In this document: positions 8,973 to 61,200 of the stretch, in pieces
How positions within the stretch are numbered: the first letter of the stretch is position 1
How the letters are laid out: the number at the start of each line of letters is the position of its first letter
NCBI GenBank assembly: GCA_964016885.1
Contig: OZ024745.1
Location: forward strand, 41,044,001 to 41,108,000
DNA: 64,000 bases
Origin: Eledone cirrhosa
Taxonomy: Eukaryota
Direction of reading: 5' to 3'
Made by a program: the position numbers and the translations under genes
The notes under the pieces: model-generated
Databases searched by the model: none
What the model was told of the DNA's origin: nothing
What the model saw: only the letters and a program-made list of their open reading frames with translations

Positions 8973-9108
8973 TCATTATTTCTGAAGACAGCATATATAT
9001 GTGTGGGTAAGTATATTCCATCTGATAGTTTGTAAATTTTTTACATAGATCTATATGATATACATACCAACACACATATATATCTTAGAAACGATCGTAA
9101 AATGATGA
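8973..9108 (+). ncRNA. type I hammerhead ribozyme with long stem II in PLE 3' repeat
   Basis: Stem I TCATTATTT/AAATGATGA; CTGAAGA 8982-8988; stem II includes ATATATATGTGTG/CACACATATATAT; GAAA 9088-9091; palindromic ACGATCGT; GTA cleavage triplet. Confidence 0.75.
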
Positions 9109-9329
9109 ATTTTTTAATATAAGGAACTGTTTCTTTGTTTTTATTCATTGTTTTTATTAATATATATATATATATATATATATATATATATATATATATA
9201 TATATTTATATATATATATACATATAACTGTGTTTGTATGTACAGTAATATAGCAGGGAAATTATACTAGCGACCCGATAGCTAAGCGTTTTTATTGATG
9301 CCTGCTTCAATAGAATGTCTGAAACGTTT

Positions 9330-10140
9330 ACATGCCGGAATGAGGTGGTCATTAACTCTTCTGACCTCGGAGATTTTTAAGTGTCACGGGTGTGGATTTC
9401 AATTATTCCCTATTCGTAGTCGTCCAAAGGATTAAGGTCTAGTGTGCTAGGAGTCCATATGTTTAAAGTAATGTGATCATGGAGATTTAAACTCAACTAT
9501 ACTTGGGTTGTTTGGGCTTACAGGACGGTGAAGAATCATGTAGGTAGATGTACATTCATCCTTTGTTCATACCTCAATCTACAACCTCACAACCCTCTCT
9601 TATAAGCAGCCACATTGATCACTAAGCCCAAAATATTTTGTACATAACTGTTGGGACATCTTTAAGGTCTCTGTACAAACATTTGCCCTTTCTTTGGTTC
9701 ACTTTTCGTCCTGATCAAAGTGTTCTCAAAAGAAAAGACCTAAATCATACCAAATTCCTAGTTTAACTTAGTCAATAAGCGTTTGCGCGCATCAGACGGC
9801 TATTTGTTTCTTTGTAGACTTGAATTCACAGCTCCGAATTACATATGACTTGTATCAAGGGTCCTCATACAACATGCTCTCGTAATGTGTCTTGGCATCT
9901 TGAGCATCTTGGCAATGGCGCTATTTGAGTTTTCCATATGTTTATCAATGATGTTCTGCACTTTCCGTACGAATTTGGATGTTCTGATAATATTAGGACC
10001 CTTAGTATGCGTTTTATGTTTCACTATTGCTGTAGAATGTCCCCGCCAGCGGATGTAGCTCTTTGCTAACTTGAAACAAGCGACCATGCAACTTTCAGGA
10101 AGTGAGCAATCTCTTAATCCCATACTCTGCCGTTACGGCA
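9330..10140 (-). mobile_element. decayed Tc1/mariner-superfamily transposase (maT/DD37D-like)
   Basis: Minus strand gives NLHDHITLNIWTPSTLDLNPLDDY (WPPxSPDLNPLD motif, ~9420-9490), an FDQDEKVN/DVPTVM-like segment near 9650-9740, and HTH-like ORF 9839..10123. Confidence 0.65.
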
Positions 10141-10911
10141 AAAATTACCAACTGACTTATCCAAACCAAATAAAGTATTACAGTGTATAATGTCCTTGAG
10201 TACACTTTCTCCTCTTCTTTCCTACTTACTCATATCTATGTCTTTGTGCTTTCACACCTGTGTGTGTAGATGTGACAACGAAATTATAGGCTGTGCAAGA
10301 AAAATACAATACGTGAGGGGAAAGGTAAAAAGAGAAGGTAAGAAATAGTGAGTAAAATATATAGGAAGACGAATGACTATACAAGCATGCACGTGAGATA
10401 AAATTTAATGTTTACCTATAGATATATTATGTACCATTTCTTGCCTCGGGGATTCTTCTTTTCTTTGCACTATTACATAAAACAAACGTGATAATCATTA
10501 TTTCTTATTCTATGAAACGACGTTTGTTCTATTGGATTTTGTATTAAATACTATTTTTCAAAGGTGAGAAGAAGTTGAAGATTAACTATCTACATAATAC
10601 ATAAATATATAAATATCAACTCAATATAACAGAACATAAGAGTACACATGTAACTATTAGGTAAAATAACACGGTGGTAGTATTCCAATGGTGGGAGGAC
10701 GTGTTGTTTATGTAGTTGTTTCGTTTCTGTAATTATTATTATTAGTATCATTATTGTTGTTGTTACTATTATTGATAATGTCATTACTAATATCAAATAT
10801 TATTTATATGTCTTTTGGAGGACTGAAATTCCAGTTAAGTAACAACACTTAAACGAGTTATAAAAAGATTTGATTGAAATAGCTGGAGTCGTTACAACTG
10901 TTAAAATAAGT

Positions 10912-59402: not shown

Positions 59403-60535
59403 TAGTGAAAGAGTGAAGAATAACATGGTCAACAGTACTAAAAGGGTTTTATTTACAGTATTAGCAATTGTTTCATTGATTAAGTTGTCTAAACATTGCT
59501 AATCACTTGAAGTTGTGTCACTCAATTTTAAATACAATGTATGCTTAATCAAATCATCTGAAAAACTGATTAAAATTATACACGGCGTTTGTAAAATACT
59601 AGGAAAATTCAAATCACAACATCAGTAATAAAGAAAGAAAAAGGAAAAAAGAAAAGAAAAAGAGAGAGAGAAAAAGAAAAAAAAGAAAAAAGAAAAAAGA
59701 TAAAGAAAAAATAATAAATAAATAATAATAAATAAGTTAGAATGAAGATGATAAAAAATAGAAATTAAGTAAAACAAATGTATATGTGTGTGAAGAAAAT
59801 TGAACATAATATGATTCTTGAAAATAGTTGTGGGGATGGTAGGGGTGGTCAAAATATAAAAATGTGATGGTATAAACATAAAAATACTAAATACATACAT
59901 ATATGTATTGGTTAAATTATATTATGAAGAAATAATACAGTGCTAAATAAAGGGTAAATTAGTCAGTTAATAAATTGGATGTTATGTTAGAAGTGAAGAG
60001 AACACGATAGGATATAATGGAAGAGGTGAAATAGTTTTAGGCAAAGAGAGTTAAAGAAACAAAAGTTAGGAGGTTATGATGTTGAATCAGTGATTAGTAG
60101 ATTTATTGACAGTTAGTAATAATTGTTTCTACTTTAGGCACGAGGCCAGCAATTACCCAGTGCATTACTGGTACTTTATTTTATCGACCCCGTAAGGATG
60201 AAAGGCAAAGTCAACCTCGCTGGGATTTGAACTCAGATCGTAAACAGACGTAACTATGCTGGAAAGCATGGCGTCCGGCCCTCTACCGATACTGCCAATC
60301 CACCGAATGGATTATTATAATAGACTCAGGTGGTACAGTTTGAATTATGGAATTGTTGGGTCGAGTCAAGTTAGTTTGAAATTAGTGAATTTAGTAGCTG
60401 CTTTATGCCTACAGAAAACTGACCGCTCTATTTTGCTGTTAAACAGCATTTTGTCATATTTTAAAATATGGAGCAACTCTATATTGCAAAGTCCGCAATG
60501 GGACATTCCATTTCTGTAGGCCTTTGCCCCTGAAA
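59403..60535 (-). mobile_element. 5'-truncated Naiad-like PLE with nested SINE and decayed hammerhead (59455-59555)
   Basis: AKAYRNGMSHCGLCNIELLHIL...LFNSKIERSVFCRHK (60366-60530); CAGATGA T TTGATTAAG...CTTAATCAA T GAAA CAATTG; (TA)n on both sides. Confidence 0.75.
60121..60305 (-). mobile_element. SINE copy, nearly identical to 543-727
   Basis: Matches consensus. Confidence 0.9.
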
Positions 60536-60569
60536 TATATATATATATATATATATATATATATATATA

Positions 60570-61200
60570 TATACAATACGTTATAAAGAAAGAAGAAACA
60601 TTAGACATAACATTAAAAAAATATAATATACCTAAATTCCTTCATTATCCTCGACTACGTAGTTTCGTGGCTACTTCGAAAAAACATTACATCATAGAGA
60701 TGCAGTATTTTTGTGAGGTTTGCCCCTGAAGTGTAGTGACTGCTATAAAGCTTACACTACCCACACTTCTCGCCCTCCTAGCCAACTCGTCTATGCCTTG
60801 TGGTATTTTTCTCTTGGTTGTAAGAGGCTTAACTCTGTTTCTTGACCGCTGTATCACGTGATAAGTTCCCCCTCCGCCTTTCGGGATTCTATCTCGCGTC
60901 CTATGGACGTGTTTTGAAACTCTAATTGAGGTATTCTCTTGATAAGTCGGCAAACCTCACCAAAATACTGCATCTCTATGATGTAATGTTTTTGCAAATT
61001 AGCCAATGAAACTACGTAGTCGAGGATAATGAAGGAATTTAGGTATATTATATTTTTTTATTTTATGTACAATGTTTCTTCTTTCTTTATAACATATTAT
61101 ATAGCTATGATATTGAATCAATCTAATCCATTCAGATTATTTTGTCCCTATTATTCATAGAGCCACAACGGTTAAGGTTGGCACCACACAAATTCAGGGA
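60570..61200. mobile_element. family G fold-back element with decayed hammerhead
   Basis: 60570-60724 is inverted at 60949-61103; ATTCTC TTGATAA...GAAA CTACGTAG TC GAGGAT at 60933-61027. Confidence 0.7.

What the first reader, a model, noticed from the sequence alone, without database searches (positions are those of the whole stretch)
8973..61027. Each family's hammerhead has its own palindromic stem/loop III: a possible dimerisation code
Seen, between GAAA and the UH site: CGATCG (9092), CTAG (13207), CCGG (13640), GTAC (14541, minus), TGATCA (21906), CAATTG (35993, 52461, 59465 minus), CATATG (54493 minus), CTACGTAG (61012). The sequences differ but are all self-complementary; family A (GAAC) is an exception. 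Established: minimal PLE hammerheads with weak stem III are thought to cleave as dimers. Inference: palindromy is conserved while sequence changes, so ribozymes would pair only with their own family, giving family-specific activation.
Basis: partly seen in the sequence, partly recalled or inferred. Interest (0 to 1): 0.72.

Follow-up and report, generated by a model that had tools for sequence, protein, structure and literature searches.

The report
Paired hammerheads of Penelope-like jumping genes
The window holds small hammerhead-type RNA motifs from the ends of many families of Penelope-like jumping genes; their third arm is usually self-complementary, as already published for motifs that likely cut in pairs, but several families share the same word and one of the commonest has none, so the word is not by itself a family code.

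Summary
All ten loop words are at the stated places, and all belong to multi-copy hammerhead families; 7 of 10 window copies keep the catalytic core. Palindromy exceeds chance. In a 1.62-Mb sample of this genome the innermost loop-III pair, which cannot form inside one molecule, is Watson-Crick in 23 of 28 families (25% expected; stem II loops 6 of 27). The motifs sit in Penelope-like pseudo-LTRs: full elements carry two identical copies 3.1 kb apart, so a same-family partner likely lies in cis. Palindromic stem/loop III and dimer cleavage are published (Perreault 2011; Cervera and de la Pena 2014). The 'code' part is not supported. A double hammerhead also swaps helix I, which discriminates more than helix III in 272 of 351 modelled family pairs. 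Cleavage was not tested. The scan reached the same reading on another piece of this genome (e1-8664523). New members of a known kind.

The parts
8974..9107 (+). Type I hammerhead, intact core at 8982, 8-bp helix I, 99-nt stem II, loop word CGATCG at 9092; at the 3' end of a PLE remnant
   Evidence: family pattern 4,538 matches, word unchanged in 94 of the first 100; core 99-105 nt upstream in 8 of 10 distinct copies
5745..8250 (+). Broken PLE ORF (RT then GIY-YIG region) upstream of the 9092 hammerhead; inverted partial copy at 4442-5568 on the minus strand
   Evidence: tblastn with a full PLE ORF, 39-46% identity, E 1e-103; inverted duplication
13176..13218 (+). Intact type I hammerhead, word CTAG at 13207; word shared with a second family
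13613..13648 (+). Hammerhead with U3-A8 core, 3-bp helix I, word CCGG at 13640
   Evidence: 14 full-span copies in the sample, 10 with intact core
14534..14572 (-). Intact type I hammerhead, word GTAC at 14544-14541
   Evidence: 7 of 7 copies with intact core
21860..21917 (+). Intact type I hammerhead, word TGATCA at 21906
   Evidence: 3 of 3 copies intact
35965..36005 (+). Short-stem-II CAATTG family, copy with C3 lost
52400..52473 (.). Same short-stem-II CAATTG family, inverted pair (52461 plus, 52411 minus), core broken at the inversion junction
54483..54606 (-). Hammerhead core intact at 54599, long stem II, word CATATG at 54498-54493, helix I reduced to one pair; pLTR of a young autonomous PLE
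55076..55333 (-). 3' end of the PLE ORF (endonuclease end) belonging to the 54493 family
   Evidence: 94% identity to residues 696-782 of the L167 ORF
55583..55739 (.). Family A: two intact hammerheads in inverted orientation (cores 55701 plus, 55621 minus), non-palindromic word GAAC
59458..59565 (-). Decayed copy (U4 and U16.1 lost) of a long-stem-II family that also uses CAATTG but is not the 35993/52461 family
60932..61028 (+). Hammerhead with U3-A8 core at 60939, 7-bp helix I, about 60-nt stem II, word CTACGTAG at 61012; 5'-truncated inverted twin at 60666 minus
   Evidence: 8 of 8 full-span copies intact
50140..51440 (.).
52060..52240 (.).

Best explanation
These are small type I hammerhead motifs in the pseudo-LTRs of many Penelope-like retroelement families; their loop III is mostly self-complementary, likely because two identical copies in one tandem transcript pair into a double hammerhead in order to cut. 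Shown: motif, families, PLE context, two identical copies per full element, palindromy at positions that cannot pair within one copy. Inferred: in the dimer each core takes its 5' half from one copy and its UH site and 3' helix-I strand from the other, so the stretch from A15.1 to U16.1 must pair with its own twin. Any palindrome serves, so words drift between families by compensatory change and recur by chance or descent. Families would mostly fail to cross-activate, but as a by-product of divergence in helix I plus helix III and of having the partner in cis, not as a selected loop III code. Most genomic copies are solitary, inverted or decayed 3' ends and are likely inert.
For: Innermost loop-III pair Watson-Crick in 23 of 28 families, 21 of 26 distinct words, 44 of 51 pairs that enclose fewer than 3 nt; four different inner pairs used about equally (6, 5, 5, 5); stem II loop control 6 of 27, Fisher p = 1e-5. 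Two full elements (L166, L167) have a 737-782 aa ORF between two same-strand motif copies 3,116 and 3,118 nt apart, with 194-nt direct repeats in L166; L168 is a 311-nt tandem array with nine motif copies in a row. Atlas look-alikes of the ORF carry HTH_animal, GIY-YIG and RVT_1. Shared words: 2 pairs among 28 families; CAATTG in at least three families. No deficit of sharing: 1 observed against 0.94 expected for six 4-nt words, 1 against 0.44-0.87 for eight 6-nt words. Nearest-neighbour model of 351 pairs from 27 families: helix I penalty larger than helix III penalty in 272, medians 15.5 and 11.2 kcal/mol. Published dimer requirement and low in vitro activity: PMC4209133, PMC7229834.
Against: No cleavage data for any of these motifs. 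Family A is abundant and mostly intact (27 of 29 full-span copies) with a purine-purine loop in 100 of the first 100 listed matches, so palindromy is not required for spread. 5 of 28 families lack an inner Watson-Crick pair. Copy 5' ends do not pile up at the cut site in the 14 families examined, and 3' ends run past it. The family with the intact ORFs has almost no helix I. Families are related, so the p-values overstate independence. Only 11 of 155 motif hits lie next to detectable PLE ORF sequence; the PLE link is shown for some families and inferred for the rest. Pfam and PDB searches did not recognise the ORF.
Confidence: 0.8

Rival explanations
1. Selected family code: loop III words (with helix I) are driven apart so that ribozymes of co-existing families do not activate or poison each other in trans.
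For: 26 distinct words among 28 families; in the energy model 0 of 351 family pairs come within 3 kcal/mol of the homodimers in both helices. One pair of families has an identical 8-bp helix I and differs in loop III (TATATA against TGCGCA, about 12 kcal/mol), so loop III alone would separate them.
Against: Zero close pairs is what chance gives (14 and 3 of 351 are close in helix III and helix I singly; about 0.1 joint pairs expected, my arithmetic). Word sharing is not below random; CAATTG is used by at least three families. The partner is supplied in cis. Family A has no palindrome.
Confidence: 0.08
2. The motifs are mostly not catalytic in vivo; the self-complementary segment serves RNA-RNA pairing or protein binding during retrotransposition (for example template pairing between the two pLTRs), with the hammerhead core kept for occasional or regulated cutting.
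For: No pile-up of copy ends at the cut site; a young family with near-intact ORFs lacks a normal helix I; low in vitro activity reported even for dimers (PMC4209133); Naiad PLEs spread without canonical hammerheads (PMC8557442 passages).
Against: Catalytic core, C3-G8/U3-A8 covariation and helix I covariation are kept across dozens of families. Only uncut RNA can leave a copy that spans the site, so the genomic record is biased against cut molecules (inference).
Confidence: 0.1
3. Palindromy is a by-product of ordinary intramolecular stem III pairing or of the reader's selection.
Against: Words were read off by helix I register without regard to palindromy, and the innermost pair, which cannot close a hairpin, is Watson-Crick in 23 of 28 families; even a 14-nt word with a 4-bp stem keeps a central 4-nt palindrome.
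Confidence: 0.02

Closest known systems
Minimal and palindromic-helix-III hammerheads in pLTRs of metazoan Penelope-like elements (Cervera and de la Pena 2014, PMC4209133; read: first 20,000 of 32,700 characters, covering abstract, results, discussion and part of methods)
   Same: Type I topology, short helix III with palindromic 15.2-16.2 and loop 3, many sequence families per genome, U3-A8 core variant, tandem copies about 3 kb apart around an RT ORF, inverted pairs 100-700 bp apart, mostly solitary copies.
   Different: Here most families have 4-8-nt words rather than the loop-less minimum (one such family found); several have stem II of 48-105 nt; very high abundance (about 244,000 above control for 4-nt words alone, loose pattern); one frequent family is non-palindromic.
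Repeat-type type I hammerheads with palindromic stem/loop III (Perreault et al. 2011, PMC3088659; read: passages, including the legend of Fig. S8; the figure itself not seen)
   Different: No family-code test appears in the passages seen; here a family-level count and a cross-pairing model were made.
Lunse, Weinberg and Breaker, small hammerhead variants of PLEs that cleave as dimers (PMC5785218; not held, title only, seen in the reference list of PMC6765202, whose passages were read)
   Same: By title and by the review's summary: PLE hammerheads with a palindromic, very short loop III that cleave as dimers.
   Different: Unknown; I could not read it, and it may already test matched against mismatched partners.
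Non-LTR retrozymes of animals (PMC7229834, passages; bioRxiv 10.64898/2026.07.22.740005, first 10,000 characters)
   Same: L168 is a 311-nt tandem array with one hammerhead per unit; axolotl motifs with a palindromic tetraloop cleave better as dimers; retrozymes are proposed to derive from PLE pLTRs.
   Different: The window copies are dispersed 3' ends and inverted pairs, not arrays.

Membership tests
Type I hammerhead ribozyme | Conserved core (positions 3-9, 12-14, 15.1, 16.1, 17) with the 3-8 pair | tested here: met
   7 of 10 window copies intact; family copies intact for the other three
Type I hammerhead ribozyme | Helix I flanking the core, open at its end | tested here: met
   3-8 bp in the 28 families kept, which was a selection criterion; compensatory variants in three families. 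Not met by the 54493 family: one pair in 12 of 12 loci
Type I hammerhead ribozyme | Helix II closed by a loop | tested here: met
   At least 3-4 bp required by the descriptor, 155 hits against 6 control; long stems fold as hairpins
Type I hammerhead ribozyme | Self-cleavage 3' of H17 | not testable with these tools
   No assay; copy ends show no pile-up at the site
PLE dimer-type hammerheads | Short helix III with palindromic loop | tested here: met
   17 perfect, 2 odd-length perfect, 3 G-U, 6 imperfect of 28 families; family A fails
PLE dimer-type hammerheads | [quoted passage not shown] | tested here: met
   L166, L167: two copies around the ORF; atlas clusters with GIY-YIG, HTH_animal, RVT_1; 11 of 155 hits next to ORF remnants. 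Pfam gave no significant hit. Shown for some families only
PLE dimer-type hammerheads | Cleaves as a dimer, poorly as a monomer | not testable with these tools
   Rests on PMC4209133 and PMC7229834 for other species
   CTAG x2, TATATA x2; CAATTG in at least three families
   Observed 1 against 0.94, 1 against 0.44-0.87, 2 against 0.86-1.71; small samples, low power
   Helix I penalty larger in 272 of 351 modelled pairs; a model, not an assay
PLE clade (Nematis, Neptune, Penelope/Poseidon, Hydra) | RT phylogeny and linker motif | not tested
   No tree built; the ORF has a cysteine-rich linker before a C-terminal GIY-YIG-like motif

The most novel reading that the evidence does not exclude
This genome carries dozens of mutually orthogonal dimer-activated hammerheads. 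Helix I and helix III together act as a two-part self-recognition address, and in sister families that keep the same helix I, a switch of the loop III palindrome is what insulates a new family from cross-cleavage by the old one.
Probability: 0.1. Interest if true: 0.6.

Novelty: new member of a known kind. Interest (0 to 1): 0.2.

Why it matters
As it stands it is a clean quantitative confirmation of a published model: the base pairs that only a dimer can form are the ones kept across about 28 families in one genome. It also gives ready test pairs (same loop word with different helix I; same helix I with different loop word; an abundant non-palindromic family). The long-stem-II families suggest that standard descriptors undercount PLE hammerheads. 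If selection for family insulation were shown, it would be a self/non-self mechanism among retroelements at the RNA level and a natural set of orthogonal ribozyme switches, but the evidence here does not point that way.

Tried and rejected
Rfam scan at E up to 5: no hammerhead family among the 150 rows shown of 244, which were mostly microRNA models on microsatellites. My first reading of 9092, 59465 and 61012 as chance matches was rejected once the distant cores were found. Copy-end mapping as a sign of cleavage: no pile-up, uninformative. Pfam and PDB searches with the PLE ORF: nothing significant. Sequencing runs: no RNA holder listed; no reads laid. Rows dropped: 16 of 44 clusters (single copies, or fewer than 2 intact cores) were left out of the family counts; one cluster that failed the automatic helix I test because two subfamilies were mixed was added back by hand; one AT-rich single-locus array was kept in the palindrome count and left out of the energy model; five clusters with TATATA or its G-U variant were merged into one family, which lowers the count of shared words. 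The sample included the window itself (157 sequences). Protein-level relatedness between families, and variation at a possible pseudoknot in the 54493 family, remain untested. Literature: searches listed no title on a family-specific code or heterodimer test (one search returned 0 papers), but the most relevant paper (PMC5785218) and all supplements were not seen.

Full report
Setting. The window is G000:C5:41044001-41108000 in a 3.0-Gb genome. It is 35% GC, full of microsatellites and dispersed repeats. A loose hammerhead pattern with a 4-nt insert between the GAAA and the UH site matches 283,831 times genome-wide against 39,693 for the reversed control.

Observation. All ten words are at the stated positions. 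Seven of ten window copies have an intact core. 13207, 14541 and 21906 are plain short motifs. 13640 and 61012 carry the U3-A8 covariant core, which their family copies also carry; this variant is described in PMC4209133 and PMC3088659. 9092 has its core at 8982, an 8-bp helix I and a 99-nt stem II; 8 of 10 distinct relatives show the same layout, and 94 of the first 100 of 4,538 matches keep the word. 54493 has an intact core and long stem II, but only one helix I pair next to the core in 12 of 12 loci. 35993, 52461 and 59465 are decayed copies of intact families.

Is palindromy more than stem III needs? I fetched 156 stretches of 10 kb at fixed coordinates and scanned them with the window (157 sequences, 1,624,000 bases). 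The descriptor fixes the word by helix I register and ignores its sequence: 155 hits against 6 in reversed DNA. Hits fell into 44 clusters. 27 passed a fixed filter (at least 2 full-span copies, at least 2 intact cores, helix I of at least 3 bp) and one was added back by hand; 16 were dropped. Of 28 families, 17 words are perfect palindromes, 2 odd-length palindromes, 3 complete with G-U pairs and 6 imperfect. The innermost pair cannot close a hairpin, yet it is Watson-Crick in 23 of 28 (0.25 expected, p = 3e-10) and in 21 of 26 distinct words, with four different inner pairs used about equally. Stem II terminal loops give 6 of 27 (Fisher p = 1e-5). Families are related, so these p-values are optimistic.

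Context. Matches of the 54493 family often recur on one strand about 3.1 kb apart. Fetched examples show an ORF of 737-782 aa between two motif copies 3,116 and 3,118 nt apart, with 194-nt direct repeats in L166 and an inverted 5' copy in L167, the layout described for PLEs (PMC8557442 passages). Pfam and PDB did not recognise the ORF; atlas look-alikes carry HTH_animal, GIY-YIG and RVT_1. The window holds a broken relative upstream of the 9092 motif and the 94%-identical 3' end upstream of 54493. Eleven of 155 hits lie next to such ORF sequence; for the other families the PLE link is inferred. L168 is a 311-nt tandem array with one motif per unit.

Mechanism. Published: metazoan type I motifs with a short helix III and palindromic loop cleave poorly alone and better as dimers (PMC4209133; PMC7229834; review PMC6765202). 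The legend of Fig. S8 in PMC3088659 already states the palindromic character of stem and loop III across many such ribozymes. Inferred from the topology of a type I double hammerhead: each core takes its 5' half and stem II from one copy and its UH site and 3' helix-I strand from the other. Two identical copies therefore need a self-complementary segment, and any palindrome will do. The PLE tandem supplies the twin in cis.

Is it a code? (a) Words are shared: CTAG by two families and TATATA by two among the 28, after five similar clusters were merged; CAATTG by at least three with different helices I and II. (b) Sharing is not below chance: 1 shared pair against 0.94 expected for six 4-nt words, 1 against 0.44-0.87 for eight 6-nt words, 2 against 0.86-1.71 with three window families added; power is low. 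(c) Family A is second in the sample (29 full-span copies, 27 intact) and has 21,734 exact matches; the first 100 read GAAC 78, GGAC 18, GAGC 4, none palindromic. (d) In a nearest-neighbour model of 351 pairs from 27 families, the helix I penalty exceeds the helix III penalty in 272; helix III alone costs under 1 kcal/mol in 5 pairs; no pair is within 3 kcal/mol in both. Families would thus rarely cross-activate, but that follows from divergence and is what chance predicts.

Results against my reading. No cleavage was shown. Copy ends do not pile up at the cut site in 14 families. The family with the best-kept ORFs has an abnormal helix I. Family A thrives without the palindrome. Relatedness between families at protein level was not measured.

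Earlier scan notes. e1-8664523 reports the same idea and the same verdict on another piece of this genome; I had stated my reading before seeing it, and it is not independent support. Notes e1-7803343 and e1-7856520 prompted the pseudoknot remark below.

Verdict. A real and well-supported feature, already described: dimer-type PLE hammerheads. The family code in loop III is not supported. Interest 0.2.

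Noticed in passing
window 54483-54606 minus; L141-L152, L165-L167: This young PLE family has no normal helix I. The 7-8 nt after the cut site are instead complementary to a stretch in the 3' arm of stem II, and the short linker between varies among copies while those two stretches hardly do. It could be a pseudoknot replacing helix I, or an inactivating misfold. A similar family with a normal helix I and a different palindrome appears in the same search.
   Followed up: partly
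window 8974-9107, 59458-59565, 60932-61028, 54483-54606: Several families have stem II of 48-105 nt, far beyond the 7-17 nt spacer used in one published core search; such motifs are likely undercounted.
   Followed up: partly
L038:5759, L005, L032 and others: An abundant family has a 14-nt segment between A15.1 and U16.1: a 4-bp stem III whose 8-nt loop still holds a central 4-nt palindrome; helix I covaries between subfamilies.
   Followed up: partly
L168 (G000:C1:1241000-1245500): Tandem array of identical 311-nt units, nine hammerheads in a row plus an inverted copy: retrozyme-like.
   Followed up: partly
window 15438-15471 minus: A family-A-like motif with the same non-palindromic word and a weak helix I; relatives listed carry a G-U-palindromic word instead.
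   Followed up: no
window 38474-43299 minus: A broken LINE-type element with an endonuclease/phosphatase domain and RVT_1; a diverged relative at about 44200-45554.
   Followed up: partly
window 539-727 and about 15 other places: A dispersed repeat of about 190 bp, the commonest in the window; it shows no hammerhead match in my scans.
   Followed up: no
window, many sites (e.g. 2284-2624, 20600-20843, 51893-52363, 55335-55984, 60561-61113): Insertions often form inverted pairs and end in (TA)n microsatellites, as described for PLEs.
   Followed up: partly
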